A stretch of 64,000 nucleotides of DNA from Lingula anatina. Taxonomy: Eukaryota > Animalia > Brachiopoda. The stretch's first letter is position 1; every line of letters begins with the position of its first letter. The notes under the pieces were generated by a model, which saw nothing but the letters and a program-made list of their open reading frames with translations, ran no database searches and had not been told where the DNA came from. A program made the translations under genes and the position numbers. Positions 1 through 46,035 of this stretch are shown piece by piece. The stretch lies in assembly GCA_051362555.1 (NCBI GenBank), contig CM120644.1:12050567-12114566 (forward strand), written 5' to 3'.

Positions 1-98
1 GTGAGAACGTTTTCCTAAAATGACCTAGATTGAACTTGAATGTAGCATGATCTCAATGACAAGTTTTAAAATAATTCACATATTTCATTTTCTTAAAG

Positions 99-753: not shown

Positions 754-808
<55 letters not shown>

Positions 809-3800: not shown

Positions 3801-4399
3801 TCTTATAAAGTTTAGCAAGATTATTAGAATCACTAATCTTTAATTAATTCAAGATGTTTTTTTTTTTTTTTATGTTCTGCTGTTAACTTTTTAGAACAAG
3901 ACCATTAAACATCGAGGGAAAAAAGGCAGAGGCAGTAACAGTCCAAAGAAGGACAATCTGAGACAGGCCCCGTATCATTTGAAAGATGGCGATGTCATTG
4001 GAGTGAAGGATTTGGCCATGGACCCATTGGACCAGGATGACTTCAAAACTGAAGAAGATTTCATAGGACTGGAAAATTTAAGACAAGCCATAGAGGAAAA
4101 GAAAAGGAGGTGAGAAATATAAAATCGATTTTTAATATGTTTGTTCTTTCTTTAGCCCTCTTCCCATGGAAGGGTATACTTTTTAAGATGAACAGTATGT
4201 TTTTCAGTTAAAACTGACGCTGTGAGAGATTGATGAATTTAATAGCCTGGCAATTACATGGATGGAAAGGTATGACCTAGGACAAATTTTTTTCTGTTTC
4301 AGGAGAAAAAACAGAGCAGTAACAGGGGCAGCGGATGGCTGCACTGTCCAGAGAAGGCCGGAGGTTGGCTTGACCATAAAAGTGGACAGTTTTCGGTGA
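99..4399 (+). CDS. USP40: Ubiquitin carboxyl-terminal hydrolase 40-like, 3' part (5' end lies outside the window)
   Basis: Phase-consistent GT-AG exons 99-155, 323-431, 586-674, 945-1068, 1534-1673, 2070-2157, 2616-2871, 3071-3136, 3401-3620, 3895-4109, 4303-4399 (TGA 4397-4399). Peptides WHLRKTNWCGEAGE..DGDHLLLEEGRVPPKGYLQLPV, IAKHFPEKFEW, LRQAPYHLKDGDVIGVK and C-terminal PEVGLTIKVDSFR* match my recollection of vertebrate USP40 (WHLRKMDWCYEAGE, APYYLKDGDTIGVK, PETSLSIHVGSFR*). Confidence 0.9.
757..806. repeat. Poly(T) tract, about 50 nt, in a USP40 intron
   Basis: Uninterrupted T run visible in the sequence. Confidence 0.9.
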
Positions 4400-5402
4400 T
4401 CTTAGAGCTATCACTATGTGGTACTACACATAAAAATAAAAGGTCATGTGATTGTGAAGGTCAGACTGGATTGACCTTCAAATGTCAGAAAGTTATTTTT
4501 TACTATAAATTTGACCTTCAAAGAGAATTTCAAGATTATACTGGACATATCCTCAGGTAAAAGCCAGATTGTTCTTCATAGGCAAAGGTGAATAGGCCAC
4601 GGTGGATGCCTCTTGACTTTGATTTTAAGCAGAAAATAAGTACCACATTTACCATTGAATTGTGTCAATGTGGATTGACCGTCATACTGCAGGTAAAGGT
4701 CACATTTAAATTGAGGGTGAAGGTCATAGTTTTGTCCTTAGCCTAGGAGGAAGGTCGCAGAGGAAGTGAGCTGTGTAAAGATAATTACTTGTCCCTTCCT
4801 CTGGGGAATTTTTGTCAGTCATTCATTATTGTCTTCTTGTGAATGCATTGAAAATGGACATGCTGATTTGTAGCTGTGAATTGTCTTGATAAAAGAGGGG
4901 CTCATTTTCATATTAAGAGGACTTTGTTTCTGAAGAAAGGAAGCTATACGAGGTGTGTCTGAAAGTAATGGGATTGGTGCCACAATTATTTCATTAAAAT
5001 TCCAAACAACAACCTTCATGCTTTCCTCTTCAAAGTAATTCTTTTCACATTTTATGCTCTTTAATTTACTTTTTTAATTCCACGCTTCTGTGTACAACTT
5101 TCCTGTTGATAAATTTCTTAACAAGAGGCTGGGGGGGGGGGAGAGAGAGAGAGAGAGAGTGACACAGAGCAACTTTGTCTCATGAAGCTTGTGTAACGCG
5201 TGATGCAATTCATTTATCTAAGTCCTTTACTGGAGAGAAATATTACTTATGTGAATGTTCATGAGTGCAATATAAAATTATTTTGTCACATAGGGTAAAA
5301 TAATAGCCCATATTGATGTATGAGCTGCTTTAAACTTAATATATTTTCACTTGAAAAGTTTGTTACATAAAAAACTATTTTATGTGAAATCTTGTTTCAG
5401 TA

Positions 5403-8439: not shown

Positions 8440-9200
8440 ATTGACATTTTATGCGTAAATTTTTATAATTTTAATAGTCTGACGCCCCTTTTAGGAAAAT
8501 GAAGACGTCTGAAGTCTTCATCCGCGACCAAATTGTCTCGTGATATCCTTCCGCGATAGTGAAGAAGTTCGAATTGTCTCCCCTCGGAGAAGCCTAGGGA
8601 GAAGATACTTTGGAATATATTGTAAAACCTGTTTCTCTACTGACCTATATAATCTGACAGAAATGATGCACAAGTTATACGTTGGTAACTTAAGTCGAGA
8701 GGTGAGTGAGAGAACACTGAGAACGCTGTTCGAAGACCAGGGACTCGGCGTGACAGACATACTGGTGAAGAACAAGCCACAGAGCTGCTACGCGTTTGTT
8801 GACTGTCCGGACCAAACAACCGTCGACAAAGCAATTGATAGCCTAAACGGTAAGACATCATCCATTAGCACACTGTGTTGCATTCAGTTGTATTTTCATT
8901 GGGAATTTCGGCAAATTGCACCCAGTTCTCTCTCTGATTATATTCAACATGGCCGGCCTCCACGAGGCAAAGCACTGTGCGAGTTTGCGGTCGCGTTCCA
9001 AAATGCAAGACTAGATCAGCCCCAGCATAACGTCACGTCCGTGCAGATTCCGTGCATTTTGCTGATAATTTGCTTAGGGGTGGAGCAATACGCGATAGAC
9101 GTATTCTTTATGGAGTAAACAGTAGACAAATGTTGGAGTAAAATCACGGGCAAGACGCCAGGTTTCATTCATAAAAATGGCCGGCATGCCACATGGCTAG
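8440..9200 (+). promoter_or_regulatory. CpG-rich promoter/first-exon region of IGF2BP
   Basis: CpG density is visibly higher than in the surrounding gene bodies and spans exon 1; YY1-like AANATGGCCG motifs near 8947 and 9175. Confidence 0.55.
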
Positions 9201-12200
9201 GTCATAGTGGAAGGTCAGTTGAACAGTGCAGTGTAAAGTCAGCATTTGACACTTGCAGAGTGGTGTTAAGTATCGATTGGAAAGAGCTTAAGTCTAGATA
9301 ATGAAGTACTGAATAGATCGCCCAACTGTCAGTTAGACAAATGTCTGTGCAAGCTAAACAAGCCAAAGTATCTACAGTGCCCAGGCCAAGGTAGATATCT
9401 GTAATGCCTGACCAAGGTCTCAAATATTCAGTCACCCACAGAAATACCTGTGCAGTTTCATTTAGAGCCTTGTATTTTATTTTGATTATTTGATAGATAA
9501 ATTCCTTAATATTAGTCAACCGCATATCAACTGACATCATATTTCAAAGATTTGGAAATGTTACTTTATACTTGAGTGTCTTATGACAAGATGGATCATG
9601 GATACCACATTTACAAAAAGTATTTTGTTTCAAGGCCTTGTTGGTAGACATTTATATTATCATATGCTATAACAGTGGCAACTATCAAACTATCAATGCA
9701 TCTGGCAACTAAAGTGTGTCAGGATGTGCATAAAATAAGCACCGCCCACATTCAGATTGGCAATTAAAATGTTAGACATCCTATCTTTCCTTCCAATGAA
9801 AATTATTGATTGGTTTATTGCTGACAAGCATGGGGTGTTAGATGATCCAGAATGCAGAAAAAACTAATTTTTAGCAAAGATAGGATCCCTGTCGTATGTT
9901 GCATGCAGCATAAATTTAAATAGTTCCAGTCTAGTTAAAATTAATTAAATTAGGAGCAGCGACCTTTACCTCAGTTATATGGATTTACAAAAATGTGAAA
10001 GATTGTTGCCAGACCAGGTTACCTAAAATGACTGTATTATATGGGTCTATTGACTCAAATTTACTGGCCCACTGGGGGGAAAAAATGAATCTTGGGTGGA
10101 AGTCCTCTTCAAATTTGAACAGAGATTTAATATTTTTTTAGTATTTTATGGAGGGGGGGGGGAACAAAGTGTTTTTTTTTGTAAGGGATGGTTAGATTGT
10201 AGATTGTATTTTATGACAACCTGTCTAGGGACCAGATCGTCACTAATACTCTAAACTGATAGTGAATTTTAAATTACAATGCAAACCTGGCATGACCCCT
10301 GGTTGCACACATTGGTGGTTTTACTATCAGAGTGGCACGGCGAGATCACATGGTGCCACTTGCACAAGCTGTGCCTTCTTGGCATCTACCCACACACACA
10401 CATAGACTGCCAAGTTAGTAGGTGAAGATTGTAATAAACTAATGCAATATTGGTAGATCTAGGCACAGGTGAAAAAAGGGGTAGCACGTATATTAATATT
10501 TTTTTGCAGTTAAAAGAACATTTACAAGAGAATTCTAAAGTATATTTCACATTCACTGTGACAGTACTGTTATGTAATTGAAGGCAACTTTAAGCTACAG
10601 TTTTGACTAAATCATATGTAGATGTAATTTCAAAAAGTAGAATGCAAAATTGTTATGTCTTGGCCAGGCAAGAGCAGTCTCCTGTATAATCCAACTACCT
10701 GCTCACAGGACTAAGAATTTAATCTTGGTATAATAAAGCAGGTTTGTGCAAATGGCCCACTGCCTTCAGATAGTCTGAAAGCAGTTTTTAGTCCACCCTG
10801 TGCTGCAAAGGCTTTTGCGGCCTTGGGCTGCTGAAGCGCACATATTGAAGTCTATGGGGACTGATCTTCTGTTCATTAATATCAATAAACTTTGTGGACT
10901 GGAGCTCCCCATGTGTGGTGGTTTTTGACTAAAAGACCCCTATGTCACGTGATAGCCAGGGGTTGGAATAACAGTATTCCCCTGTTGTCTAACAAAGCTG
11001 AGAGAGTGCACCGTGAGTGAACAAAAGCGGAGAGTGACCCTATTCATAGAGAGGAATTTCACAACGGAAATGCAAAATGAAAACCACAAGCCCCACATGG
11101 TGGCTTGAGCAACATACTTTATGCTGAAGTGTTTGTATTGAAGCATTTGCTTAAATTTAATGTTGAGAAACTATTTCTTTTTCAGTTGTGGATGCTAGAC
11201 ACATTGAACTCTATTTATCTTTTTTTTTTTCTATTTATTCATGTAATGAAAAATGCAGTTAAATAGAAATGTTGCTGTACACAATATGAATAATATATCA
11301 TCTTTTCTATTGTATCTTTTTTTCAAATCAGAACATGAAGTGAGAGAGAAAAAAATACCAATTGCAGTGTGAATTTAATGAAAACTGAAAGTTGAGGGGT
11401 ATTATCTTGAAGGGAAGGGTTACTAGGCTTGAAATAGCATAGCCTTGTCATGAAGAGATAAGAATATAGCTGATTAAATATCTGATATAGGGTGAGTGTC
11501 ACCAGAACAGAGATAAATACAGATTTCTCACAGGTAGTTGAAGGTATTGTTCTAGCAGTATATTTAAAATTTTTCCACATAATTTTAACTCTTTCTTTGT
11601 TATCCCTCTGGTTGACTTAGTCCTGGGGCCTTTCTCCAACGAACCTACCATCTTTCATTTCCCTTACTGTGGTGTGTATATGTCAGTAGCAGCTGTAAGA
11701 GGTTCATATCCATTACTGATGAAAGCTTACAATATGGAAATTGCAGTTTGAACATGATAGATAACAGACTTGGAAGCCACAAATAGAATGTTTGGGTTCA
11801 CTGCTTCCAAGCCAGGTAGCCAACCTTACACTTGCATTTTCTCAGATCTGGGGGCGGGCCTGAATGAAGCACACTTTCTACCAATGGCAGCTGAAATTCT
11901 TTGAAACGGGCAATCTGAAAGAAATGGTTGTGCAATAGCGTAATATGTGTCATTATCATACAGTGGACTTCAGAGTGATATTGACACAGAGAGGAAATGA
12001 GTATATCCATTGAAAGAGATATCTAATCATTTTTCTCTGGGTGATTGAACTCTTTGACTGATCTGTAGGGAATAGGATGGGTTCCATTGGGACGTTAAGA
12101 TAGGTTTGCATGCTCTTCTTTCTGGGAAACAAGGTTGATGTGATCAGGCAGTCCTGTTTTATATTTCACAGATGTGGTTATAATGGTCCATAACTTGTTT

Positions 12201-15200
12201 TCTAATATCTTTATTTGTACTTTTTTTATTGATTGTGTAGGATGGGGTTTATCCATATCTTGATAAAAATTGAATGGATATAAATTGAGGTAACATTTAT
12301 ATTAATGCATGGCTTCTGTGGGGTTGTTGTTTTAACAGAATAGATGAAAATGTTTTCATTTGAAAATCATTTTCCATTTGAACCATAATAGATTTATAGA
12401 AAAAAAAATTCAAAGTTATGTTTTCATCAGCCAAAATAATTATTTATCTATCTATATCTTTTGTTTTAGCAAAATAGATTGGACAATTAAAAAAAAAAAA
12501 AAAACAACCAAACCATGATAGATTTTCAGAAGAACATTTCAAGTCATTAGCTAAATTTATTCAGCATTTGAATTAGAATTAGCATTGGGTATGATTGGTA
12601 AATTGTGTATGATCTAATTGTTTTAATTCTCTCCTGTAGGCTACAATCTGCTAGGCTCTGTCTTGCAAGTGGAACCTTCCATGTCCATACATAGGTAAGT
12701 AATAGTGATAACCCGTCTCTGGGTTTTAAAAAACTGACCTTTTGAAATTTTTAAAGATAATAGAGATGTGTTGTTTGCTTGAGATCAATCAGAAACTGCT
12801 TTTAAGTTGTCAGTTCAGAATTGACAGTATGTATTGAAAATTCTATGAATATTAAACCATCAGCTGTTTTTGATTGATTTCCTATCATTTTGCAATCAAA
12901 ATAGAAAGGTGATGATTACCTGTTTATAATTAGTTTTTTAAATGGATAACAGTGATAGACATTTTTTATTTTATTTTATGAGCAGCATATGCTATGTTGA
13001 AGAGTCGGCTAGCAATTTAAAAGCCAGTTAACAATTTAAAAAATCTTTTTTTTGTGGTCTCAAGGAGCCAATACCATTTTTACCTGTTTACTTATTTATG
13101 ATTTATTCTTTAAATGGCCCCAATATGGCAACTGTTTGGAATTTTGTTCTTGCTAGCTGTATTATATAATTTGGTTTTGTGGGAGTTTCTCTTGTTTTAA
13201 CAAAACTCACTATCAGTAGGTATGATTTTTGATAAAGATGATAAAGTTATATTGGGCTGAAAAGATTGTAAATCCATTGTCTGCTGCAGTATGAATGTTG
13301 ATGTTTGTCTACCATCTTCTGGGTATAATATTGGAAGTATTTGCCCTGATAATTCACATATGCAGTGCATACTAGAACAAGATATTATGAATTAAAAATG
13401 AATGTTGTGAGGTAGGCAAAATAAATAGTCTTCTTTATCAGTGTTGATAATCTTCTATATCAATATAGCTAATAGTTTTTGTTGCATTGTCTCATGAGTA
13501 ATACTGCACTAAAAGAACCAAAACATGTTTCCTTGAATGGTGACCAATGATTATTTCTTAGAATATAAATAAAGATTGTTAAAATTGTCTTGTAATTGTT
13601 GTCTGTGTTGAGAATTGATGTAAATAATGTAGCTATCAGTCTGTGAGTCAGTGAACTTTAATAGTGACAAACTGGTGAGGAGGGTTGGTAGGTGCAGTTC
13701 TCAGCATGTTAGCTCCCCAATTTTTGACTGGACAATAGTATTTTGGTTTAAATTTTATGTTTTTCAATTTTTGTATCTTACACCCCATTCTCATAGATTA
13801 GATCGACCTACATTGGATCGACCTAACTCCCTGGGGGTTCACGCTAAATAGCTGTCAGCCGGGCGGACACGAAAGTTAATTACCCCTTAAAGCTTGTAGT
13901 AGGCGGGGACGGACACTTAAGGGGGATTATCTGACAGTAATCTAGTGAGACTCCCCGCGGTGATAGATCGATCTAAAAGTTGTGAGAACAGAGCCTTAGT
14001 TAATGTGGCTCAGTGCTTTGATTTGGAACCTTCTCCTTATTCCTGTTTAGATTTATACCAGATGTTAAAAGGGTCTTCTGTATGCCAAATGTTGAAACAA
14101 ATTTTATGGGCTCTAGAAACTTGCAAAATATGTACACACTCTCCCAATATCTCATTGAGTTGATGAGGAACCAATTAGTCTGGTATGAACAAAAATAATG
14201 TCAGAATGACCCCAGCTTGCTCATTGTCATCATAGTCCCCCCTCTGTTGTGATTCCAGCAGGTAAACCTACTGCTGTAATTTGTGTTCAGTGATACACAG
14301 GGCAGTGTATCGGCACTGTTGTTTTCCTCCCTCTTCTCTGAAGAGTGGGTGGTATCTTGCTTGTTGTTATTTGATCTGGATCTGTGGGTTGAGGACGGTT
14401 CTCAGGTATACTTCACCACATCCTGGAATTGGGTAAGTTTGTGATAATGTTTTGAGATTGTTTTAGGATTGAAATATTTTAAAGTGGTGAAAAATCAACC
14501 GCCAGTGGGAGGGAATGCAGTGTACCTATTAGAGGCGACTTGGGTGGTTTAAGAACCTGCAAAAGAATTCAACTGAAAATTTTGTACCTTGCTGTTTGGT
14601 ATTGATATAGAGACTACAAGAATTTGGAAATTCAATTTTTCCATCAACATAGTTTTTTTTAATGTTTTGGTTAATTTTTGAGAAAGAGTGGGACTGTGAT
14701 AGTGTAATATATTGTCTCAATGTCTGTTTTTGTATATAACAAACTTTTGTACTTACATAATAACTGGCTCATGTATCTGCTTAGAACAACCTAGCAACTG
14801 CTCAGCCCAACAGAATTTAGCAAATCTTTCAAATTAATAAGCTTATGAAAATGTTTTAACCAAATAATTATTAGTCGGGTTTACTGTACATATTTATTGT
14901 AATAAGAACCAGTAGGACAGATTTGATGCTAAAGTAAGCTTAGCTCTATCAAAGGGTCTGCATGGAAGAGTCATGCTTAGAAGGATTAACGTGTCTAAGT
15001 GTAAATGCGACTTCAGTTTTTCCAGGGCGTTGCTTGACAACAGTTTGTTGTAACATGTGGCAACAAAGTTCACTTAAGTCTGCAGCTTTCTTGGTAAACT
15101 GGAGCAATTAGCGGCAGCCTCTGGCAGAAATTGATTTCTTGGAACATCTTTATAGGGCTCATCGTGCACCAGTGAGCTTTTCCCTCCCAGATCCTTCAGC

Positions 15201-18200
15201 AGAGAGTGCGATAAACTGCCTCTCAGCAGTAGAAATATTAGATATACCTAACCCGACAGCTGCTGCGTAATATGGTATATAAAACCTGGAATCTCTTTCA
15301 TTATTGTTTATCTTATTTTGTACACCTACAGCAAAATGCCTGCCGGTTGGTGAATACAATGCTGTAGAAATTTGTCAGCTGACGTCATATCTAGTCCCTA
15401 TTAATGTCATTTTAACATAAATCTTAAGTGCTAGGATTGAGAGCATAAAGTGGACTTTTAGGAGAATTATGACTGATGATTATTTGTACTGAAATGTTGT
15501 GAGGTACCTCTAGTCCCCAGTTGTGTTCTGGATATAATATCTTCGGATATTTCATGGTCTCTTTAACTCAAATTTGTAATGTTGTTACCCATGAGATTAT
15601 CAACATTTTTCGCTATATATTAGAAGAAAAAATGGTTCTAGTAGTAGATATTTAGAATCGAAAAAAGGGGCATAAAATTTTAGCTCTGAGTTGAGTTTTT
15701 TTCACGTCTGCCATCTTTCTGTGTGGGCTTATTTTGTTGCTGTTTTTACTACCACAGCATCCTGTTGTTTTTGTAGTATTGATTTTGGGAAATGGTGTAA
15801 GATATGCATGCCTTATGTAGACCTATATAACTATCCAATGATATCTGTCCGATAATGACCATCATGTACTATATTTACAACTGTTAGGAAAGAGATGTGG
15901 TATTTGACTATGGTAGAGATACTCCCATTCTGCAACTTTTATGTTGCCATAGCATTAGAAATTTGCACATTGCATGTACTCTGATTTCGTCAACAAAAGG
16001 ATCAGAAATCTTTGAGATATGTATGTTTTTCTAGCGAAATGAGCTATTGTGGTTTTTGTGCCAGGTAAATATACTTTCTGATAGGAATAGCAACACACTG
16101 AAGTTAAGTTATTGTAGCTTAACACTTTTTGAGCAAGTTGTATTGAAAAGTGTCTAGTTTCCGTTGAAGTCTACTTACTGGTCAGGATGGCCAGTAGGAA
16201 AAAAAACTGAAGTGATTTTTTTGGTATTTCTCCATGGAAAAATTGAATAAAGTATAAGTAGCATAAATCGACATTGCTGGGAAATGCCATTGGCTGTCAG
16301 TATTTGAATATACTTATTTATTGTAAATGTTACGTTACAAATTCTATCGTCAGGTTATAAAAGAGATAGTTATGCGCTTGCTGGATTATTTTTAATTTTA
16401 ACATTTGTCTTGTTTTGTACTGAGCTTGTCTGAATTATTATTGCATCCAACAGTGTTATGTACTTTTTTTTTTACTTAGATGCCTGTTACCAGTTTGTTC
16501 CCTAAACCTTATTATAATTTGTAGTCTGTAGTTTTAGCATAGTCTCAAATTGGTATGCTCACAAATGTATTCAGTATACTGGCAGTGCTGCTCAATTTCA
16601 AACTAGGGATTCATCATAAGTGAACTTTTTTTCAGAGTATTTTTTATATGACTGTCCATCATGTCATATAATGTAAAATGTGGTCACTTTTTCTTTATTC
16701 GACTGAGCCAAGTACTTTATTTTCAATTAAAACATGTTTTGCCACCTTGCTGACAACGTCACCATTTGATCATCACTGCAAAAATGACATTCAAAAAGAA
16801 GTTGATTAATGTGCTTTTGGTTGGTAGGTTGGTTGGGGTTCTCTGTGTCTGATTGACTTATATATCTGCCAAATGTGAGTACTTTTAAGAAAAAAAAAAA
16901 AAGCATTGTTATCCTGAAAAGAAGGCACCAAGTGAAGGCGGGTGAAGTCTCACATGATATTCAGCTGTGGAAATGTGTGTAGAGTTGAGCAGCACTGTAT
17001 AAATGCTTGTGCCCACACCACCGCTATTTCGTGCTGAAGCATTGTGTGTACTACTCTCCCCCTCCTCTGTTGTAGAACTCCTACTACTACTACTGCAGAA
17101 GCTAGAAGTAGCTAACTTGTGGAATCTGTACTGAGCTGACTACGCAGCACACCATCATGGCTGGTTATGAACAGTCTGAACAATACGAACCTTATAACAA
17201 CATCCAAAGTGAGGAAAACGATAATGATTATAACGGTCACCATGAAAGTGGTCAAGAGGACTCGTCTAATTCGTAAGTTGATATCATCACATTTTTTCGG
17301 CTCTCACTCTCTCTACAGGCTTTAAATCTTGTTTGTCTTACTGAAGTTACAGGCTTCAACTTTAGTATTGGTAAATTGCTGGTGGGAAACAAATTTGGGA
17401 ATAAATTTTCCCCTCTTTTTCTTCTTCTTAGATTTTTCTTGTGCAGAGCTGTCCTTTTGTGCTTGCATTGTCAGCTTTATATAAATTAACAGTAGCCCCT
17501 TTGTGTGTCTGTCCTTGTATAGACTAACAGCCTGACCTGATCCACAAGTCGGCTACCGTTGCACTTGCATTGCATTCTGATGTAGAATAGTAGAATAGAA
17601 TCCTTAAGGCCCATTTCACATGTCGTTTAACACAGAGGCTCGACTTAAAACTGGGCGTAAAATGAGATAAAGATCTTAGAACTCCTTGCTTGTCGTTTAT
17701 TAGATATTTGGTTTTTAAACTAACTTTGAGCAAAATTAAAATTGAAGATGTAGTCAGTGTGGATAAATAAAAACAAGCACAGCTTATTATTATTCATAGA
17801 AACTAGCTTGCACTATGATTTCATTTTAACATGAGGAATTTGCAGTGTCTTGTTTGATTTATAATCATCAGAAAATAATGGCTAATATTATGGCTTCAGT
17901 TTTTCAGTGTGGTGTACTAGTTAACATTTTTGTGTATAGATATACAATGATTTTTTTAGATAAATTAGTTGAGATAATGAAATGCAATAAAATCGATCTT
18001 CATTTTTGTTTGATGTATTCCACTGAACTGTTAAATTGCTGAAGGTGAAGTGGATGGGGGGACAAAGTTGACAGCTGTATTTGTGAACTTAAAAGTATAA
18101 ACTTGTCCCATGAAACCAGTAGAAACTCAAGAAATAAAAAAAAAATAATGTGGTTGTCAAAGTGGATGGAGAGCAGTGTAAGTTCAGTGCCATATGGCTT

Positions 18201-21200
18201 CTATGCTTGATGTCACTGTTTGCTTTTCATTGCACATAGCTTTGCACCTTCTGATATTTTTTTAAATCTCTGTTCCAGCTAAAAGGGAGAATTTGATCTT
18301 ACGGCTAGGTTGCCAAAATTGTAGCTTCAGGGATAGTTTGATAAATACTTCAGAACTTTTTTAGTTGTTGAACACAAGTGTTTCATTGTTGCAGTAAAGT
18401 GTTTAAGAGGCTAGACAGACTCCTACTGAGACTGAAAACACAGAACATACACTGTAGTTCTGGAGCAAGAGAAAGAAAGAAAGGAGACTTAATACAATAT
18501 GGTGTGCACGTGCTCTAGATCTATTCTAGGACTTCTCTTTCGCACGATCAAAATAAGCAGACACCCTGCTGATGATACAGTGCTTCTAACGAACCTTTCC
18601 TCTGTGCTGCAAAGTTGCAAGTGAAATCTTGAAGTGTGCTTTTTTTTTTAACATGCGTTAAGATTTACATTTTCTTTTCAATCTTCTTTCAGACGCACTG
18701 CCAAAATCATAATTCGCCACGTTCCTTCACAAGTAACCCACGAAGATCTTTTGCGCTTGGTCTCTGCTTTCGGTCCAGTTATAAAAACAGATGAAAGTAA
18801 GTGCTATTTGAAAAGAAATCTTCAAAGTTTAAAAAGATTGGCAGGGGCTGATATAAATGGCAACTTCATTATTTTTATTATACAGGTAGCTCTTCAGCAT
18901 GATGTGAATAGACAATTTTGAATCAAAAGCAATCAAAAAGCAAAGCTCTCATAAATGTCACAAGAATTTAAGACTGATTTTTTAATGCCGTGCCTTGCAG
19001 CTGTAATAAAAGAATGGAAAGAAAATTAATTGTGCTTTACATACTCGTAAGCAGTCTACAAAATTTACAAGGTGAAAAATACTTTTTCAGTTTACTAAGA
19101 TTGCCATTTGTTTCCTATGTTGTTTAGTCAATTTGTAACTTCTTTAACAAATTATGCCTGGTTAGTATGATAACTCTTGTACATAGTGGTTCCCAGAAAA
19201 GTGTTTGAATTTTCTAAAGGTTATGGTTTGTTTTCATGGTATTTTCAAACATTTTGCGTGATGGAGTCTTCTGTCTTCTGTAGGTACAAACCGCAATGGT
19301 GAGAATGTTGTAGTTGTCATCTACGAGTCGCCAGAAGCTGCACAAGAGTGAGTACAAGGTCCTGAAAATGGGCCCTTTTATATGTCACACGTTATATGTC
19401 TAGACAACAAAATAATTCAACAAATTGGAACTCACAAACAGTTTGTGAGAGGGGGTGGGGGTTATTTCGTGCTGTTATAAAGAGCACATGTGTAATTCCT
19501 GATGCTTATTATTAATTTCGGAGAAAATTTTGTAGTTTCTACATAACTAAATGCATAATATTGCTGCATACTACTACATAGCATTGCAAGCACAGAGTGG
19601 GATGTTTACTTACTGTGTTATTCATGTAATGCTGCAGGTTAATGTTATTTTAATTACATTGTATTTTGTTTAATTGTAGGGCCGCTTCACAGTTAAATGG
19701 TTACGAATTATTAGGAACACAGATCAGTGTAAGTGTTTGAATATGATTTGGACTGAGGTTGTGGTTCAAATTTACTCACCAGGTTGAAGTTAGATGTTGA
19801 TTAAGTAATTGAAACTTGATATAATGTGGTAACTAAATCACTTTTCACCATTTTGATAGAATTTGTATTCTGTCTTTCCTGGAAAGGAATAGGGCCGAAT
19901 TTTAAAATGGAAAGATGCCCTCATATGATGTGGATTGTGAATATGGGGAAATATTTTCCTTTCTAGGTTGAATTAGCAGCTCCAAGGAATAACCGTCGCT
20001 TTGGTGGACGTCGTAATTTCTCAGGGATGGGGAGCAACAGAAATTCTGATTTTCCTCTGAGGTAGGTTTTCCTTAAGCATGCAGTATAGTACAAAAAAGA
20101 AACATTTCAATATCTTTATTTTAGAATCCATTTTTAAAAGGTATTCAACTGAAATTCCCAAAGTTACTTAGAAGGGGGGGGGGGGGGGGGGAGTAATTTT
20201 CTTTTCAAGTGAGATTTTTTTTTTTTTAAATAATTATATGTAAAATGCTGAAGAGTTTAAATGGACAAGTGTTCAAATTAATGTATCAGTGGCATTTTTT
20301 GAAATAATTTTTCTCAATTTAACAATTTGGTCTCAAACACGGAGAAAAGAGGTTTTAATAGCCCTTTCAGGAGCAGTTAAGTGAAGATGTGCATTATATC
20401 ATCTGTGCTATTTTAACTGTAGTTAGAGGCACATGAATGCAAGTCTCATAATAGTATACAGTCATTGCATTTCTTTTACTAACAGTGGCAGATAGAACTA
20501 AGAAACACGAGTTTGAGTGTCCATGTCAAAAATTTCTCCATCTTATACGACAAATTTATTGGGATGTTTCATATTTGTGGAATCATGGTTTCTATATTTA
20601 CTGTAGTAAAGGACTTTGTACCACATAATTGTGTCATTATTTTGTTGAGGTGAACAAGGATGTGGCTAACAGGGGCACATCATCCTAGTCATTGTGTGTT
20701 ATCAGATGAGTGCTGTATTACAGAATATTGGTGCCGCGGGAGATGGTGGGTGCCGTAATTGGACGCGGAGGTGAAACTGTCCGCCAGATCACGCAGCAGT
20801 CACGGGCCAGGTAAAACAGTAGACTGCCTGCGTGCTCATGCTCGGGGGTATTATGACATGCTGTGTGTGTGCTCTGTAGCAGCGGCATTGAGGAAGACCC
20901 CACAAACAGGCTGGTTCTAGTCTTGTTAGTCTAGCACTGCCCTTGCCCATACGTGTGTGATGCAACAATAACCGAGAGGGTAGTCCTAGTCCTACTAGTC
21001 TAGTATGGGCGTGTCAACCCCCCACAAACACCACTAACCTGTTCCATCCCCTGCAGGGGCCTGGCCGGCAGCAGGAACGACTACTGAGTAGTTAGATGTA
21101 GTGTACTTACAATAGCATGGTGTTGTTTGTTGTAGAATTTTGGTGCCGCGTGAGACTGTGGGCGCCATCATAGGCAGGGGTGGGCAAACCATCAAGAAAA

Positions 21201-24200
21201 TCACCCAAGACACCAGGGCCAGGTAAGGTGATGGGCGGCCAGTCGTCTTGATCAGAGATGAACTGGGATGGTCGGCTTGGGTGTGTGGTGGTTGATGTCG
21301 GGTGTGTAGACTGTATGTAGTGTCTGTGTGTGTGCAAGTTAAGCGACGGAGAGTTAATAGAGAGAGAGAGAACCATTTTTTCAGACTGCTTAGGTACATG
21401 AAGTATGTGTGTGTGTGTATGCATGTGTAGGTGTTCTTGTTCAACTTCTGCTTTTTTTAATCAAATTGAGAATCAAATTGAGAATTGAGTGTGTTGTGGA
21501 CCAGGAATGTGATGTTGAGATATTTTTTTTTTAATATCTGGCATGTGTATTTGCACTGGTGTTTGTGAATGTGCACAGATTATTCATGTTATAAAGATGA
21601 GAGGAGGATATGTGAGAGCACGTGTGCATTGTGAGATTGCATAAGAGTATGGTTTGTAGCTTTTCACTGTGCATTGGTTCCAGTTTGAAATGGGATGTGT
21701 ATATGTTTTTGTTTGTGTGGACAGGTAGATTTAAGTAGGCAGTTACAAATGGGTCTGGAATATAATCTAGCACATTTACATATGGTTTTTAACATGTAAC
21801 TGGGAATATATTTTAGTTTGAAATTTAGAAGTAGAAGATACTATTATGTACAGACACAGATGTGTCTGTACATATTGCCATCACCTGCGTCTGTCGTCGC
21901 CGTTCATGTCGCCGTCGCCGTCGCCGTCGCCGTGCACTTTCAGCGTTAACACCATAAGTGGAAGACAGTTTTACTTTTTGGCTTTATATTTACAGAGCTG
22001 ATGAATATTCATAAAACGCAGGTCAAGTTCGAAAATCAGCATGATCGGGCCATTATTGTAGAATTTATGCTGTTTTTTCACTTTTCAGCATATATGCAAC
22101 ACTGTTAACACATTTCAAAGAAAACCGATAGGCCTGTTGTCATGAAACTCACAGGAGTAATCAATCTTACTAAAATGCAGGTCAAGTTCGAAAATCGGCA
22201 TGATCGGGCCACCATTTTAGTAGTTATGCTGTTTTTTCACTTTTCAGCATATATGCAACACTGTTAACACATTTCAAAGAAAACTGATAGGCCTGTTGTC
22301 ATGAAACTCACAGGAGTAATCAATCTTACTAAAACGCAGGTCAAGTTCGAAAATCAGCATAATCAGGCCATTATTTTATAAGTTATGCTGTTTTTTCACA
22401 TTTCCTCAGATTCAATTCTTAGGCATGTTAACAGTCTCATTATTTAATTAATAAGATACGTAAAAGTGTTTGTTTGACATTTCCTGCATCTTTACAACAT
22501 TATTAGTTGATTATGTAAAAATGATGGTAAACTTGTTATCGTGTATTGTGTAATAAAGTGTCAAAAATGGAAATAAACTCATATTATTGCAGTTTGTAAG
22601 ATTCAATCATTCATTATGTTCAGAAACTCAGAATGGAGGAAATTGGACATTTGACACTGTTCTATTGATATTTTTCACATCTCATCAACTTTCTTAGTTG
22701 ATCATATAAAAATGGCAGTAAAGTGTTAATTTTGTTATATGTTAAAAAATTGTTAAAAATGGAAAAAAATGCATTGCAGGACAGTACTGTCTTGTCTACA
22801 TTTTGTAATTTTCAAGTTGTGACTTTGAAGTTCCATGGGCCTGAAGACCTTTGCTAGTCACATTTTCTGAATATCCATGATACTAATATTTTATTATTAA
22901 AAATTGATGGTTATTACTGTTAAACATTATGTAATATTACATCAAAATTTGAAGAAACCCCTATTTTGGACACTGCTCCCTTGATGACCATTTAAGGAAA
23001 ACTATGTCACTTACTGTTCTCAAACTTACAGGAAAGAAACATGGGACTAAAATACAGTTTCATTAGGCAGTGCAGTCTATTTGGTAAATTTTTCTGGCAG
23101 TTAATCAGTTTTTTGTGAAAATTTAATTTTTCACACATTGGCAATTTCAAGGTGTGACTTAGAACCACCTTGGGCTTGAAGACCCATGCTAGTCACATTT
23201 TCTGAAAATCCACGATACGTATATTTTATTATTAAAAACTGATGGTCTTTATGCTGTAAAGCATTATGAAATATTGCATCAAAATAGAAGAAAACACAAT
23301 TTTGGGTATTGCTGCCATGATGACCATCATGGGAAAACCATATTACTTATGATTGTCAAACTTTTAAAAAAGAAACACAGGACTAAAATGCAGCTCGAGT
23401 TGGAAAAGCAGTCTAATTGACTTCTTTTTCTGGAAGTTTTACATTTTCAAAGTGTGAACTTGAACTCCCATGGGCCTGAAGCCTTATGCTTGTTACACAT
23501 TTTACTTACATTGGTATTACCTGTTGAGCATAATTAAAATTTGATGTTGAATTTGCAGTTTAACATAATGTACTTTTACATCAGAATTGACAGTAGCCTA
23601 TTTTGTTATTTCCTGCTTTTTGTCTGTACATTTGACAGCTTTGCTGCCTTGTTAAATACTTATTATTAAATACTAATGATTGATGTGCCTGCAGTATTGT
23701 AATTTTTTTTCTTTTTACATCAAAGGAATATGGTGTCTTAGCACTTTATCTAGACTTGTTCTAATTGGTGTCTTAACATATACTGTAATCTTTTCTTGTG
23801 CATTCCAAATACACAACGACCGATTTTGGATAAAGGATGTGAATGATAGCTGTTCATTGAACACTCAATCCTAGCAATATATCAATAAGATCTAAAATTT
23901 TTACAAGTAGATGTTGTCCTGAAGTCTTTTCTTTTACTGTAAATGATGGCCTTCAGCAAAATACGTCATTCTCGGCAAGGATACTGATGTTCTCCGTAAT
24001 GATGTTGAACATTGTCCCTTTCCAGAGTTGATGTGCACCGTAAGGAAACCGTGCCAGGCTCAGTGGAGAAGGCCATCACCATCTATGGAGCACCAGAGAA
24101 CTGCACCAAAGCCTGCAAAGAAATCATGGCTGTTGTACAAGAGGAAGCCAACAAACAGAACAAGGGGTTTGTAGAGGAGATTCTGTTCTTTGTTGTGATG

Positions 24201-27200
24201 TTAAGATTTTATGGGACAACTGGTTTTGATAAGGGATTTTGTTGTCTGAAGTTGCTACTGACTGTGGTTGCTACTGACTTTTTTTTTTTTTTTTTACACA
24301 GTATCTGATGAAGGCCTGCGTCCAGGTTGGCCATAAGCTACAATATGGAAAGTTTCGACTTGTGTTTGATAATTTTCAAAAATGTGACATATTGAAAGCA
24401 TTTGATTCATAGGCATTCATTCTTTACGTGTAACCAATATATCCAATCTGTTTTACTTTCTTGTCCTCCAGGGAGATCCCTCTGAAGATCCTGTGCCACA
24501 ACAACCTGTGTGGCCGTCTGATTGGTAAGCTGGGTCAGGTGATCAAGGGCATCATGGAGCAGACAGGGACAAAGGCCAGTGTGTCAAGGTGATGACCTAT
24601 GTGTGTTTGTTCATAGTAATTTGAACTAAAGCCATTTGATTTAGGGATAAATAGGGTATATTTAAAAAAAAAATGTTTGGTGACATTTGGTACATCGCTG
24701 CATTTTGGGGTCATCTGTAGACAGGTCTTCATGCGACGACATTCTTGGTGATTGCTTGTGAATTAACAGATTTGACAGAAAAAAAAGTTGTAGTTAAACA
24801 TTGTACAAATTAATGTTTGACTGTGCAAAGTGATGTAATGTTGATCAGATACCATGAGCAAGTTAAAAATCACAAGTTCAACATTTCAAAGTGACTGAAA
24901 ACATATCTGATGGTGATGGATTTGATGTTAAAATGTTTGATTTCAGTATCCATGAAATTGACCCAATGAACATGGACCGCGTGGTGACAGTGAGAGGCTC
25001 TCTGGACGCCATGCCAGAGGCGGAGGCCAAGATTAGTGCAAAACTCCGAGCTTGCTATGAGCAAGATATGCAGAACATGGTGAGTTTTCTCCCATGATTT
25101 TCTTGGTTTTGATTTTGGTGTGCGATGAAACTTTTGCTTATTCAAACTTTTTGCATAGATTATGAAATTGTATGGTGCAAGTTTTTTCTGTTCTCTATTT
25201 AAGAATGAAGATTTCTGGAGAATATATGTTTGAATTTTGATTTATACTTAAAGAAAAGATAAAAGAAGTCAAAAGTGGTTTTTTAAGTTAAATTAGATCA
25301 GTAATGTAAATAAATACAAAGCCAACTCTGTCATCACTAAAAAAAAAATTATTAGATGTACGTATTTTGGGGAGAAAAGAGAATTATAGGTATGATTGTT
25401 TGTAATATGTGGGAGAATGCCCCCAGATGGCCTGAAGAATATTCCTCCTACATCCCACTAGGTAAGAGAGTATGAACCCCAATTACTTACTTTGTAGCCT
25501 CAAAATGTACTTATGATGCAGGGCATGAACCCGATGGCTCTTATGCAGCCTTATGGACCCTATGGGATGAGAAGCGCCCTCTATCCACAGGTAAGTCAGG
25601 CAACTGTAGCTCCTAGCATTTGCCCTGATTGGCTGCAGATGTTGGAGAGCCCCATCTATTGACAATACTGCCATCACCTGAAGATTTGATTGTGTAATTC
25701 TTCAGATGTTGACAGGGATTGTCTCTTGCAAACTATGCCTCATGCGCAGACAATTGTTTGAGCTGTTTTTTTGTGTGTTAAATGTTCCCCCATATGTGTT
25801 ATTTATTTCACAAAACTTGTTGCAGTGAATAAGTTCTTGAGCATCCCAAGATGATGAAAAGTGGCCATTATTGGTGTTGATTAATGACCAAAACCAAATA
25901 ATGAGACTGGAAAGTAATACATTTTATCTTGACGGTTGTCTGTGCCATTTGTGCAATTAATTCTATTTGTTTGAACTGTTTTCTGACGGAGAAAAAAAAG
26001 CCCCATTATGCTCTTGATATATTTTTGGTTAATTTGTGCTTCACAATTTTTTCTGAACACTGAACCTGGGAAGAGAGTCTCTAGGGGAGTGTTGTGAAAT
26101 ATGAATAATTCTATCATATACAGAGAGCATATCTTAATGGGGGCATTTTTTTCCACTATATTTCATATTTTAGTCTTTTTACTTTAACTGATCTCATGTG
26201 CTTTGTGCTTCATGACTTCGAGAATTACACACAATTTCATCTTATTTCACTTCTCAAATATGACCTCTGTAATAACCCACAACCTCTACCACCCAAGTCG
26301 GGACTTCAATGAACTCTTCCTCATCAGTCAGAGAGTCCATTCTTGTCTTGACGGGAGTGTAAAACAGTGACACATTCCCCATCATTTGTAGGTGTGTATG
26401 CAAGGAGAGGCAGTACAATACCAAGTAAGTCCTAGAAACAATTTGGCAATGAGCATGGGCAATTTTTTTTTTTTTTATTGGAAATGTCATATGTTTATTC
26501 ATGTCTATATATTTGTGTATATTTTTGGTGTAAAGCACTTATTGGTGGTATTTACCATCCTTTTTGGATGGGTTTACACACTTCTATGTTTTTTTTGGTA
26601 CAGGAAATATTATTTAAAATGTGATGGGTTGGGTGTGTTTGAAGCTGTAACTGACAGTAGAATTTACATGTATGTGCATCTAGCAATTAGCATGGTGTTC
26701 TAGATGATGATCTCTGTTGTAACAATGTTTCTTTTTTAATTAATTAATTGCCTTATTCCCTCCCCTTACTGTGAAAGTTTTTGGTTTTTCAAAAACCGAC
26801 AATAAATGAAGTTTGATGTTGATTAAAAATTGATTTATTGATTAATTTTTTTTTAAATATATATTTTGAAATTTGACAAAATTCAAATGAAAAGATTTTT
26901 AGTGCATTAAAACCAGAATTCCACACCCTTTTGCTTGCATGCAATACATGTAAATGTTCTGACTGGTTTTGCTCATGCTCCATTGTTTTTAATTGTACTT
27001 GGTATTTTACCGGGTCTCCCTTTGTTGATTGCATAACTATGGCTTTTATTTTCTTGTATTGGAGACATTTTTTTAGAAGTTGAACAAAACTTGGCTTTAT
27101 TGGATTGTTTGGGGTTACTCACTTGTAAAGAGAATGTTTCACAAATTTGCAATAAATAGTTGTTAAAGACTGGTTTGATATGCACAGCCCAACCTTCAAC

Positions 27201-29663
27201 CAGAGAGCAGGCAAATATCAAGCTTGTTTTTAGTTGAGTTTTTGTCACTTTTGAAAGGTTCCCTACAATAGATGCCACCCACCTCCTCTGTTTCTTTTTT
27301 GTCCTTTTGAAGAGATGATTGAGCACACTTTTCCTTTCCACTACAAAACCAATTTCATAACTCTAATAGCAGCTAATTCAACAGTTTTGACTGGTGTGGT
27401 ATGTTCATTACATGATTGTTGTTTAGCCTTTTCTTTTCACTATTATTTGCAGCCTTTTAATTAACATAACCAAGGTCGTATTGTACTGGATGAAAGTCAC
27501 ATCACTGTCTCTTGTTTTGAACTTTGTTTTCTTTGGCTTTTTTTGAGTCGCATTGCATAATATATGTAGGCATGGCATCTGGGGAGGTTGGGGGGAGGGG
27601 GTCAGTCAATTTTGGATATAAATCTATAACTTTTTTTTATTAATTTTAGTACCAACAATTCTTGGAAATTCCCCATTGTCATGCTTGCATGCTTAAAATC
27701 TGTGTGAAGAGACATGCTGTGTTGAGTCTTGCGTGTCTACCTCTGTAGCCTAGCACCTTATTTCATCCACAAATTTGGTCGCTTTTGACCCCAGTACCCT
27801 TTCCAGGGCCCTGGTGGCATGTACGGTCATGGCGGCAGTGGTGGCGCGGGCGGCTACCGTGGCGGGATGCAGTCCACCCAGGCGGAGACTACCTACCTCT
27901 ACATACCCAGCACTGCAGTGGGGGCCATCATTGGCACGGGAGGGCAGCATATTAACTATGTGAAGAACGTGTCTGGAGCTGGTATTAAGGTACTGATAAG
28001 TTGTGGATGGAAAGAGGGGAATGGTGGGTGATTTGTGTGTGTGTGTGTGTGGGCATTGTGAGAGAGAGGGAGGGAGGGGGGAACATGCCTCCAGCTGGTA
28101 TTTTACTACATAATTTCCCAGGAATTGATTTAGTATTAAAATGTTATTTGCTATTTGTACATGTTGGAAATATTATTACGTGACACTCATGTAGAGGGTG
28201 TCAATGTTGACAGGCATTAAAGCAGTTGGGTATGTGTGTGTATGGAATGGGAAACTATGCAGCATTGTATTTGTAAGATGGTGCAGGGTTTGGTACCATA
28301 CTCCAGCATATGGCATTGTTTTGAAGTTGGGTCTATTTCAAACAAGTACCCTTTATATGATCCAGGTTGCCGATAAGGATGAGGACCCCAATGCTCCAGA
28401 GAGGCGAGTCACCATCACAGGGAACTATGATGCACAGTACAAGGTATGCTCCATTGCGTTAGTACCAGTTGGGATATTGGTTGGTGGCAGATCGCCTTTT
28501 TTTCAGGTTTAAATTAGTCCTGATGTGAACATGACTGAAAATGCTTGTGTTATTAGCATAAAGGTTAAATTTTAAGTCTTCCTTAAGAATTTAATTAAGC
28601 CCTACTAAATTTTAATCTTTCGGCCAAATGCCTTCCTCATAGCTTTGATTGAAACATTTATTAAAATCGGGTTTTTCATTATAGATATATTAAAATCGGC
28701 ATTCCCCATTATATTTCAGGCCCAATTATTGCTCTTCCAAAAGATAAAGGCTGAGGGCTTCTTTGGCAATGATGACCCTACCCTGAAAGTAGAGATCATG
28801 GTGCCCCGCAGTATTGTGGGACGTATTATAGGCAAAGGAGGAAAGAATGTACGTATATAAATGGTTTGGAATGTTTTTACAGCCTGCTTCCATGAATAGA
28901 TGCTCTGGATTGCGTATGCTGTAAAATTTTTAAGAAGCAGATGCCTTTTTTCACCTGTGATTAGTTGTCTTGTATTATTTATATTAGTATTATTCATTTA
29001 TTTATTTGTACTGTAGATCCCACCTGTCTGTAAAATAAAATATATTTGAAGACTATTGACTATTTGGAAAATGTTCAATATTGACTAATGGATATAAATT
29101 AAAATTTATCAGTGTAAAAACTTGAGGGTGGGGGGAGTAACTTCTACAATTGACATGATGTTGATTTTTTTATGCCCATTTGCAGGTGCGTGAGCTTACG
29201 CGTATCAGTCGTGCCATTATCAAAATTGCAGAAGAGCAAACAACTCAGGGAGACGAAGTGGCTGTGCAACTAGTGGCCCCGTTTGAGAACAGTCAGGTAC
29301 ATGAACATAAGCATGTATGGAGGGAGCCTTGACTTAAAACCTAATATCAAACTTTGGCTTTTCATATAAGTTGACAAAAAAGTGAACTGCTCATCTTGGA
29401 TTGTATTGAATTTCAGAAATATTTTTAAGTCTATGCATTTTGTTGGCAAACATGTACGTATTACATAATCAAAACAGTACAAGTGGCTTTATTTTATTAC
29501 TGAGCCTTGCATATTTTTTAAAATTTTTTTACAGCTTGCCCAGCGTAACATTCGTTCTGTTGTGCAAAGTCAAATGATGCCAGGGATGGGAGAAGGCCCC
29601 CGTGGTGGGGGCCCTGGGCGTGGCATGGGGCGCGGGCGTGGTGGACCACAGAATGGCCAATAA
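8663..29663 (+). CDS. IGF2BP: Insulin-like growth factor 2 mRNA-binding protein (IGF2BP/Imp/VICKZ): 2 RRM + 4 KH + RGG tail, about 588 aa
   Basis: Exons 8663-8849, 12640-12694, 18693-18796, 19284-19347, 19680-19728, 19967-20061, [20724-20810 or 21136-21222], 24026-24166, 24472-24588, 24947-25079, 25498-25590, 27795(or 27807)-27989, 28366-28443, 28720-28848, 29186-29296, 29535-29663 (TAA); all phases join in frame. N-terminus [20 protein letters not shown] (RRM1), then DFPLRILVP..GRGG (KH1), [21 protein letters not shown] (KH2), [10 protein letters not shown] (KH3), [12 protein letters not shown] (KH4). Confidence 0.95.
13788..13988. mobile_element. Palindromic MITE-like element in IGF2BP intron 2
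   Basis: Nested inverted segments ttctca/tgagaa, ttagatcga/tcgatctaa, gggg..tcac/gtga..cccc and ctgtcag/ctgacag; CpG-rich relative to the host intron. Confidence 0.6.
16998..17004 (+). promoter_or_regulatory. TATA box of a putative internal IGF2BP promoter
   Basis: TATAAAT about 150 nt upstream of ATG 17157, with no intervening ATG after the box apart from the adjacent aaATGc. Confidence 0.5.
17157..17272 (+). CDS. IGF2BP: Alternative first coding exon of IGF2BP (acidic 39-aa N-terminus replacing RRM1)
   Basis: Good start context (atcATGG); encodes [39 protein letters not shown]; donor TC|gtaagt in phase 2, matching the acceptor at 18693. Confidence 0.75.
20724..20810 (+). CDS. IGF2BP: IGF2BP KH1 exon variant A ([29 protein letters not shown])
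   Basis: 87 nt, cag|...|gtaaaa, phase 2-2, open reading frame, intact GxxG loop. Confidence 0.88.
21136..21222 (+). CDS. IGF2BP: IGF2BP KH1 exon variant B ([29 protein letters not shown])
   Basis: 87 nt, tag|...|gtaagg, phase 2-2, open reading frame, intact GxxG loop; paralogous to 20724-20810. Confidence 0.88.
21844..23653 (+). mobile_element. HINE/Helentron-type non-autonomous element with internal tandem repeats
   Basis: 5' sub-TIR ATGTACAGAC (21846) with adjacent inverted copy GTCTGTACAT (21864); (GTCGCC)n microsatellite; 159-bp tandem units (anchors at 22019, 22178, 22337); 3' sub-TIR GTCTGTACAT (23622); terminal hairpin gacagc-ttt-gctgcc followed by ttgtt. Confidence 0.75.
26392..26424 (+). 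CDS. IGF2BP: Candidate 33-nt cassette exon of IGF2BP ([11 protein letters not shown]) in the KH2-KH3 linker
   Basis: tttgtag acceptor and CAA|gtaagt donor; phase 0-0, matching the flanking exons; no stop codon. Confidence 0.6.

Positions 29664-45988: not shown

Positions 45989-46035
<47 letters not shown>

What the first reader, a model, noticed from the sequence alone, without database searches (positions are those of the whole stretch)
20724..21222. Duplicated, probably mutually exclusive exons swap the RNA-binding GxxG half of IGF2BP KH1
Seen: two 87-nt phase-2/2 exons separated by a 325-nt intron, both with intact splice sites and both open. They differ at many synonymous positions but at only 8 residues (M/T, V/I, E/Q, V/I, R/K, Q/K, Q/D, S/T), which suggests purifying selection on both. 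Established: this segment (beta1-alpha1-GxxG-alpha2) forms the KH RNA-binding groove, and the vertebrate IGF2BP1-3 genes have a single such exon as far as I know. Inference: including both would insert half a KH domain, so they are probably mutually exclusive, letting a single-copy invertebrate gene produce two KH1 surfaces (ETVRQ vs QTIKK next to the loop) with different RNA affinity or specificity.
Basis: partly seen in the sequence, partly recalled or inferred. Interest (0 to 1): 0.85.

Follow-up and report, generated by a model that had tools for sequence, protein, structure and literature searches.

The report
Switchable KH1 exons in brachiopod IGF2BP
In the lamp shell Lingula, the gene for the RNA-binding protein IGF2BP carries two old, conserved copies of one exon, and RNA reads show either copy joined to the exon before it; they are likely used one at a time, giving two proteins predicted to grip RNA with different strength.

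Summary
The window matches Lingula anatina IGF2BP/Imp. RefSeq already auto-models both forms, but cuts them off after these exons. Raw RNA reads (4 runs) join the upstream exon to A (4 reads, one run) or directly to B (24 reads, three runs), and B to the downstream exon (43 reads). No A-to-B join is listed, and in three runs the depth leaves no room for one. The A-to-downstream join is inferred, not displayed. dN/dS is about 0.09 with saturated dS and unalignable flanks, so this is an old duplication with both copies constrained. B is the major form. No such swap appears in listed isoforms of 15 mollusc clusters, so it looks lineage-restricted. Mytilus swaps the adjacent KH1 segment instead (protein level only). 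Altered affinity is more likely than altered specificity; neither is tested. A real, apparently undescribed member of a known class.

The parts
8663..29663 (+). IGF2BP/Imp gene, ATG to stop; two RRM and four KH domains; 595 aa with A or B
   Evidence: Gene model open end to end. First 214 aa are 100% identical to Lingula RefSeq XP_013405581.1. Pfam RRM_1 x2 and KH_1. Exons after 24166 are my model, not read-tested.
19967..20061 (+). Shared upstream exon (RRM2-KH1 linker, ends DFPL-R)
   Evidence: Its last bases are the consensus of loose ends in front of both A and B.
20724..20810 (+). Exon A, minor form: KH1 beta1-alpha1-GRGG-alpha2 with M, V, E, V, R, Q, Q, S
   Evidence: 4 upstream-junction reads in X1; 2 reads in X7 end at its donor. 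RefSeq isoforms X1 and X3. Weakest acceptor by pyrimidine count, 8 of 18, lowest of 16 acceptors.
20811..21135 (+). 325-nt intron between A and B; GC about 50% against about 33% in nearby intron; TAGT 8 times
   Evidence: 1.3 expected; best of 256 4-mers, P 7e-5 before correction. Unspliced sense reads up to depth 5.8 in X1 only.
21033..21056 (+). ACTAAC, pyrimidine tract and CAG: a strong-looking cryptic 3' splice site 79 nt upstream of B; its use would meet a TGA after 10 codons
   Evidence: Sequence. No depth at 21090-21133 in any of 4 runs, so no use was seen.
21106..21110 (+). CTTAC, candidate branch point at the usual distance from the B acceptor
   Evidence: Motif scan only.
21136..21222 (+). 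Exon B, major form: same segment with T, I, Q, I, K, K, D, T
   Evidence: 24 upstream-junction and 43 downstream-junction reads; two variant sites, both synonymous. RefSeq isoform X2.
24026..24166 (+). Shared downstream exon: KH1 beta2, variable loop, beta3, alpha3
   Evidence: Its first bases are the consensus of loose ends behind B in all 4 runs. Weak KH_1 match to profile positions 40-65.

Best explanation
Exons A and B are an old tandem duplicate in the Lingula IGF2BP gene, each spliced to the upstream exon, likely used one at a time to give two 595-residue proteins that are predicted to differ in how tightly KH1 holds RNA rather than in which sequence it reads. Shown: both acceptors take the upstream exon, B is mostly reached by skipping A, and B joins the downstream exon. 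Inferred: A also joins the downstream exon. B is the default because A has the weakest acceptor of the gene, and A is switched on in some samples. Frame, U12 incompatibility and a distant branch point do not explain the exclusion, so trans-acting splicing factors on the UAG-rich intron are the most likely cause (untested, about 50%). The swap keeps strand 1 (the KH1-KH2 interface), the GRGG loop and strand 2. It changes the charge and one core residue at the start of helix 2 (E-T-V-R-Q against Q-T-I-K-K). B is predicted to be the tighter binder (about 45%).
For:: upstream>A 4 reads (X1); upstream>B 5, 5, 14 (X1, X4, X7); B>downstream 6, 12, 14, 11; no joint listed; the first bin of B holds 110 letters in X1 and in X4, exactly the 5 upstream-junction reads, so there is no A>B read there. 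In X3 no read reaches the A donor. In X7 two reads stop at 20810 with no depth after it, and all 22 X7 reads run on into sequence unlike the stretch. RefSeq has X1 and X3 with A and X2 with B, none with both; pS 0.72, pN 0.19, dN/dS about 0.09, Fisher P 1e-5. A neutrally evolving copy stays this intact in 2 of 20000 simulations at 0.5 substitutions per site. Flanks do not align better than shuffles (136 and 102 of 300); among 86 other IGF2BP KH1 halves, position 20 is Ile in 86 (A has Val), Glu at 18 occurs in 0 (A only) and Thr at 8 in 0 (B only). Charge over loop plus next six residues is +1 in A and +3 in B, the two ends of the range seen. maps the exon to beta1-alpha1-loop-alpha2 on a homologue's model.
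Against: The A>downstream junction is not displayed (fewer than 3 reads per run), and one of the two X7 reads at the A donor is ambiguous. A is rare (4 of 28 listed acceptor reads; absent from X4, unspliced only in X3), so the absence of A>B joins rests on few molecules; mates may be counted twice. Only about 6-25% of 4 of 9 runs were read. X1 has unspliced reads in the A-B intron as deep as exon B. A+B and skip-both are both in frame (624 and 566 aa), so nothing in the frame forbids them; skip-both reads could not be seen with this stretch. The neutral simulation does not exclude a short neutral branch (P 0.11 at 0.2) or recent loss of function. Helix 2 makes few RNA contacts (PMC12127562, passages), and all eight changes are moderate. 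No binding data exist.
Confidence: 0.7

Rival explanations
1. The exons are mutually exclusive but the two proteins are functionally equivalent. Both copies are kept by the constraint to fold and by each being used somewhere, not by different RNA binding.
For: Loop, strand 1 and strand 2 are shared. Six of eight changes lie in helix 2, which has few RNA contacts. Five of the eight positions vary freely among homologues.
Against: A carries two residues and B one residue seen in 0 of 86 other halves, one at a position invariant in all 86. A use differs between samples (4:5 in X1 against 0:19 in X4+X7, Fisher P 0.006, reads not fully independent).
Confidence: 0.35
2. Exon A is mainly a regulatory dead end. 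After upstream>A splicing the next intron is retained, the donor reads Arg-stop, and the product is a 214-aa RRM-only protein or is degraded, tuning IGF2BP level.
For: RefSeq A models end at that point. X1 has sense reads in the A-B intron up to depth 5.8. A>downstream is not displayed.
Against: The RefSeq B model ends the same way although B>downstream has 43 reads, so those ends look like an assembly or annotation break. X7 reads leave exactly at the A donor. X1 depth drops at the A donor. Amino-acid-level constraint on A is not expected of a poison exon.
Confidence: 0.1
3. A and B are included together, adding half a KH domain.
For: A+B is in frame; no structural block to joint inclusion was found.
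Against: 24 listed reads reach B straight from the upstream exon; no A>B joint is listed, and depth leaves no room for one in X1, X3 and X4.
Confidence: 0.03
4. The pair is an assembly artefact, two alleles placed in tandem.
For: None beyond the general risk in heterozygous marine invertebrates.
Against: Only 68% nucleotide identity, saturated synonymous sites and unalignable flanks. Both exons occur with the same upstream exon in one run (X1), and intron reads lie between them.
Confidence: 0.01

Closest known systems
Tandem duplicated exon substitution events / homologous mutually exclusive exons (PMC9741552, PMC8373072, PMC5740500)
   Same: Adjacent homologous exons of equal length and phase, conservative substitutions, old age, one common and one rarer exon.
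   Different: The human catalogue (supplement searched) has no IGF2BP, PCBP or KHDRBS row; its HNRNPK event is C-terminal. Here the swapped piece is the helix-loop-helix core of a KH domain.
U2AF1 exons 3/Ab and RBFOX1/2 duplicated exons (rows; PMC5224494, listing only)
   Same: Duplicated internal exons in RNA-binding or splicing proteins.
   Different: Other domain types. The Lingula exons are 87 nt and in frame together, so decay cannot police double inclusion.
Human IGF2BP1 (IMP1) KH1-KH2 (PMC6486635, sections 19 and 20 part 1; PDB 6QEY matched)
   Same: Same domain. KH1 is the specific, higher-affinity partner (CNG) and binds through the GxxG groove; the KH1-KH2 interface uses beta1 and alpha3, which A and B share.
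   Different: Vertebrates have three paralogous genes; no duplicated KH1 exon is catalogued for them.
Mytilus IGF2BP isoform pairs
   Same: Equal-length alternative segments inside KH1 of a lophotrochozoan IGF2BP, seen in 5 Mytilus species.
   Different: The swapped piece is the next one (beta2 and variable loop, 4 differences in 14 residues), so the origin is probably independent. Seen at protein level only; genomic exons not checked.

Membership tests
Tandem duplicated (homologous) mutually exclusive exons | Neighbouring homologous exons encoding the same protein region | tested here: met
   22 of 30 residues identical, E 5e-12, 325 nt apart.
Tandem duplicated (homologous) mutually exclusive exons | Same phase and compatible splice sites | tested here: met
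   Both 87 nt, phase 2/2, AG..GT; either gives an open 595-aa frame.
Tandem duplicated (homologous) mutually exclusive exons | Each exon is joined to the upstream constitutive exon | tested here: met
   4 reads to A, 24 to B; RefSeq X1/X3 and X2.
Tandem duplicated (homologous) mutually exclusive exons | Each exon is joined to the downstream constitutive exon | tested here: inconclusive
   B: 43 reads. A: below the listing threshold; 2 X7 reads leave at its donor, target not printed.
Tandem duplicated (homologous) mutually exclusive exons | No or few transcripts with both exons | tested here: met
   No joint listed; no room for one in X1, X3, X4; one X7 read ambiguous; few A molecules in all.
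Tandem duplicated (homologous) mutually exclusive exons | No or few transcripts with neither exon | not tested
   Such reads do not touch the stretch laid.
IGF2BP/Imp family | Two N-terminal RRMs and four KH domains with GxxG loops | tested here: met
   Pfam RRM_1 x2 and KH_1; four GxxG segments in the model; best full-length matches are IGF2BPs.
Exclusion by frameshift and decay | Exon length not divisible by three | tested here: not met
   87 nt; A+B gives an open 624-aa frame.
Exclusion by steric hindrance (OGDH type, PMC7969005) | Branch point under about 50 nt from the upstream donor, with no AG between it and the acceptor | tested here: not met
   A CTCAT lies about 28 nt from the A donor, but 22 AGs follow it and a normal CTTAC sits near B. 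Motif-level test only; no lariat data.
Exclusion by competing RNA pairings (Dscam type) | Conserved docking and selector pairings around the exons | tested here: inconclusive
   10 region pairs, none beat all 12 shuffles (best 1 of 12); folds no better than shuffles, z +0.73 and +1.35. Conservation could not be tested without a related genome.
Functionally specialised isoforms | Different RNA affinity or specificity, or tissue-specific use | not testable with these tools
   Needs binding assays and labelled tissues; sample identities are coded.

The most novel reading that the evidence does not exclude
KH1 of invertebrate IGF2BP is a repeated target of exon duplication. Lingula swaps the helix-loop-helix half and Mytilus independently swaps the strand-2/variable-loop half, so single-gene lineages make KH1 variants with different RNA targets by splicing, where vertebrates use three paralogues. 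In Lingula the choice would be regulated by tissue or stage and possibly tied to the alternative first exon that drops RRM1.
Probability: 0.25. Interest if true: 0.7.

Novelty: new member of a known kind. Interest (0 to 1): 0.47.

Why it matters
It is a natural pair of KH1 domains that share loop, strands and protein context and differ at eight positions. That makes it a clean test of whether residues beside the GxxG loop tune KH-RNA affinity, including an Ile-to-Val change at a position invariant in 86 other IGF2BP halves. Duplicated-exon swaps inside a KH core are absent, for the names checked, from the human catalogue. A second, probably independent swap in Mytilus KH1 would extend the known convergence of such events to an mRNA-localisation factor. 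The limits are that it appears confined to one lineage, is already present as automatic RefSeq isoforms, and has no functional data.

Tried and rejected
No whole genome is held for this window, so gene copy number in Lingula was not tested. The run search gave 'no RNA holder listed'; raw-read runs under the same species label were laid instead. RNA pairing: a 21028-21050 / 21264-21291 helix (-28.8 kcal/mol) would loop out B, but 1 of 12 shuffles did as well among 10 tests, so it is not counted; folds were unremarkable. The metagenome scan gave 72 loci. I examined 15: 14 are IGF2BP-like with one copy of the segment each, and none is close to Lingula. A search focused on the B segment returned 13 proteins of 15 candidates, none B-like and none from a brachiopod, phoronid or nemertean by name; this is weak evidence. 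A search with the downstream exon found no identical protein among 62 candidates, so full-length A or B proteins seem not to be on record. The protein atlas did not answer. Earlier findings: 4 look-ups, nothing. Literature searches that found no paper on this event: 0 papers; listings unrelated or general. The supplement held for PMC9741552 is one short file with no hit; its Drosophila and nematode tables may not be in it, and the supplements of PMC5740500 were not searched, so an Imp entry there is not excluded. A last script did not run; its checks were replaced. My notebook entry giving the cryptic acceptor as 78 nt upstream is wrong; it is 79 nt.
Full report
1. Observation. A (20724-20810) and B (21136-21222) are 87 nt, bounded by AG and GT, 325 nt apart, and differ at 28 bases; 8 codons are identical, 12 synonymous, 8 non-synonymous. 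No third copy lies in the window.

2. The gene. Exons read off the sequence give one open frame from 8663 to 29663: 595 aa with A or B, 624 aa with both, 566 aa with neither. A profile of A and B against cluster representatives returned proteins identical to the window model. They are Lingula anatina RefSeq IGF2BP isoforms: X2 (XP_013405581.1) carries B, X1 (XP_013405580.1) carries A, and X3 (XP_013405582.1) carries A behind another first exon. All three stop at the end of A or B. A search with the next exon found no identical protein among 62 candidates. So both forms exist as automatic annotation, but only as N-terminal fragments.

3. RNA evidence. Four of nine listed raw-read runs were laid on 20650-21290; 90 reads were laid from about 6, 6, 6 and 25% of the runs. 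Junctions to exons outside this stretch show as loose ends, listed from three reads up. Upstream exon to A: 4 reads (X1). Upstream exon to B: 5 (X1), 5 (X4), 14 (X7). B to the downstream exon: 6, 12, 14, 11. No joint inside the stretch is listed. Depth arithmetic sharpens this. The first bin of B holds exactly five reads' worth of letters in X1 and X4, all explained by the upstream junction. X3 coverage of A comes from unspliced reads that stop before the donor. In X7 two reads end at 20810, with nothing after. Every X7 read runs on into sequence unlike the stretch, so the longer of the two cannot have gone to B (inference); the shorter is ambiguous. Against this: A-to-downstream is never printed, A is rare (4 of 28 listed acceptor reads), X1 has unspliced sense reads in the A-B intron up to depth 5.8, and reads skipping both exons could not be seen. 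A use differs between samples (4:5 against 0:19, Fisher P 0.006), but mates are not independent and the samples are coded.

4. Selection and age. Nei-Gojobori counts give pS 0.72 (dS about 2.5, saturated) and pN 0.19 (dN 0.23), Fisher P 1e-5. A copy evolving neutrally keeps its frame, splice sites and at most 8 changes in 2 of 20000 runs at 0.5 substitutions per site and 0 of 20000 at 0.75, but in 11% at 0.2. The two variant sites seen in B reads are synonymous. The flanking 150 nt align no better than shuffles. The duplication is old and both copies have been constrained; recent decay of A is not excluded by these numbers alone.

5. Distribution. Listed isoforms of 15 mollusc clusters show one version of this segment per species (members listed were 15 of 35, 15 of 19, 15 of 20, 15 of 16, 2 of 3 for Octopus, and all of the smaller clusters). 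One Pinctada entry differs in two residues at the start of the segment and looks like a sequence error. Fourteen IGF2BP-like metagenome loci have one copy each (15 of 72 loci examined). A and B share P-R-E at positions 5-7, seen in 0 of 86 other halves, which suggests duplication within the lineage leading to Lingula. No other brachiopod, phoronid or nemertean sequence could be identified in hand, and only one named annelid, so the date is open. Mytilus isoforms in five species swap the adjacent 14-residue beta2/variable-loop segment at equal length. That is probably a second, independent exon pair; I saw proteins only.

6. What the swap changes. On an AlphaFold model of a millipede homologue (28-row alignment, mean pLDDT 82) the exon covers beta1, alpha1, the loop and alpha2, ending at the start of beta2. 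Two differences fall in alpha1, six in alpha2, none in beta1 or the GRGG loop. In human IMP1 the KH1-KH2 interface uses beta1 and alpha3, and KH1 binds CNG through the canonical groove, possibly with base contacts on the second strand (PMC6486635, sections 19 and 20 part 1). A survey of KH structures finds side-chain contacts from helix 1, phosphate contacts from the loop and the start of helix 2, few other contacts from helix 2, and 3' base reading by the following strand (PMC12127562, passages). That strand is shared. Among 86 distinct IGF2BP KH1 halves (from 277 of 441 proteins in hand, mostly arthropod and mollusc), position 20 is always Ile and A has Val; A's Glu at 18 and B's Thr at 8 occur in none. 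Charge over the loop and the next six residues is +1 in A and +3 in B, the ends of the observed range. That position 20 corresponds to the fragile-X isoleucine is my recall; one search places that mutation at the start of helix 2. Added positive charge in the loop raises affinity without changing binding mode in FMRP KH1 (PMC10326445, passages), which is an analogy only, since here the changes are beside the loop. I therefore predict B binds more tightly and both read similar sequences.

7. How exclusion may work. Of the mechanisms listed in PMC5740500 (passages), frameshift decay does not apply, both donors look U2-type by inspection, and a distant branch point as in OGDH (PMC7969005, passages) is unlikely with 22 AGs downstream of the only early candidate and a normal candidate near B. 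Pairing scans found nothing beyond shuffles. What stands out is A's weak acceptor (8 of 18 pyrimidines, lowest of 16), eight TAGT words in the intron (1.3 expected; about P 0.02 after correcting for 256 words), an ACTAAC with an unused cryptic acceptor, and a TGCATG at 21420. That these resemble Musashi/hnRNP A1, QKI and Rbfox sites is recalled, not tested. Splice-site competition set by such factors is my best guess.

8. Novelty. The class is well known (PMC9741552, passages). The human catalogue has no IGF2BP, PCBP or KHDRBS row, and its HNRNPK event is C-terminal (PMC8373072, supplement search). Nine of my ten paper searches asked for such an event and found no description of it; subscription journals are largely outside the library, and the Drosophila tables may not have been visible. 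A bioRxiv paper on Igf2bp evolution has no mention of exons or invertebrates (passages). Verdict: real, expressed, likely mutually exclusive, apparently lineage-restricted, function untested. New member of a known kind; interest 0.47.

Noticed in passing
P0255/P0258 and Mytilus cluster members P0366-P0379 (not in the window): IGF2BP isoforms of five Mytilus species carry one of two equal-length versions of the KH1 beta2/variable-loop segment, probably a second, independent duplicated-exon pair. Protein level only.
   Followed up: partly
window 17076-17272 (ATG at 17157): Alternative first exon of IGF2BP, matching RefSeq isoform X3; it replaces RRM1 with a 38-residue acidic peptide, and X3 pairs it with exon A.
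   Followed up: partly
window 21033-21056: Consensus branch-like ACTAAC, pyrimidine tract and CAG form a cryptic acceptor that looks stronger than B's own; its use would give an early stop. No reads show its use.
   Followed up: partly
window 20820-21070: Sense, unspliced reads pile up inside the A-B intron in run X1 only, the run that also uses A.
   Followed up: no
window 20700-21300: GC is about 48-57% across both exons and the intron between, against about 23-43% in flanking intron, which may mark constrained regulatory sequence.
   Followed up: partly
window 22012-22404 and 22810-23438: Tandem arrays (159-nt unit x2.5, 336-nt unit x1.9) in the intron after B; a possible reason why the RefSeq models break here.
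   Followed up: no
window about 43450-47300, minus strand: Exons of a protein tyrosine phosphatase gene (Pfam Y_phosphatase); IA-2/PTPRN-like by recall.
   Followed up: partly
window 1-4400, plus strand: 3' end of another multi-exon gene, stop near 4398; USP40-like by recall, no Pfam match for three exons tested.
   Followed up: partly
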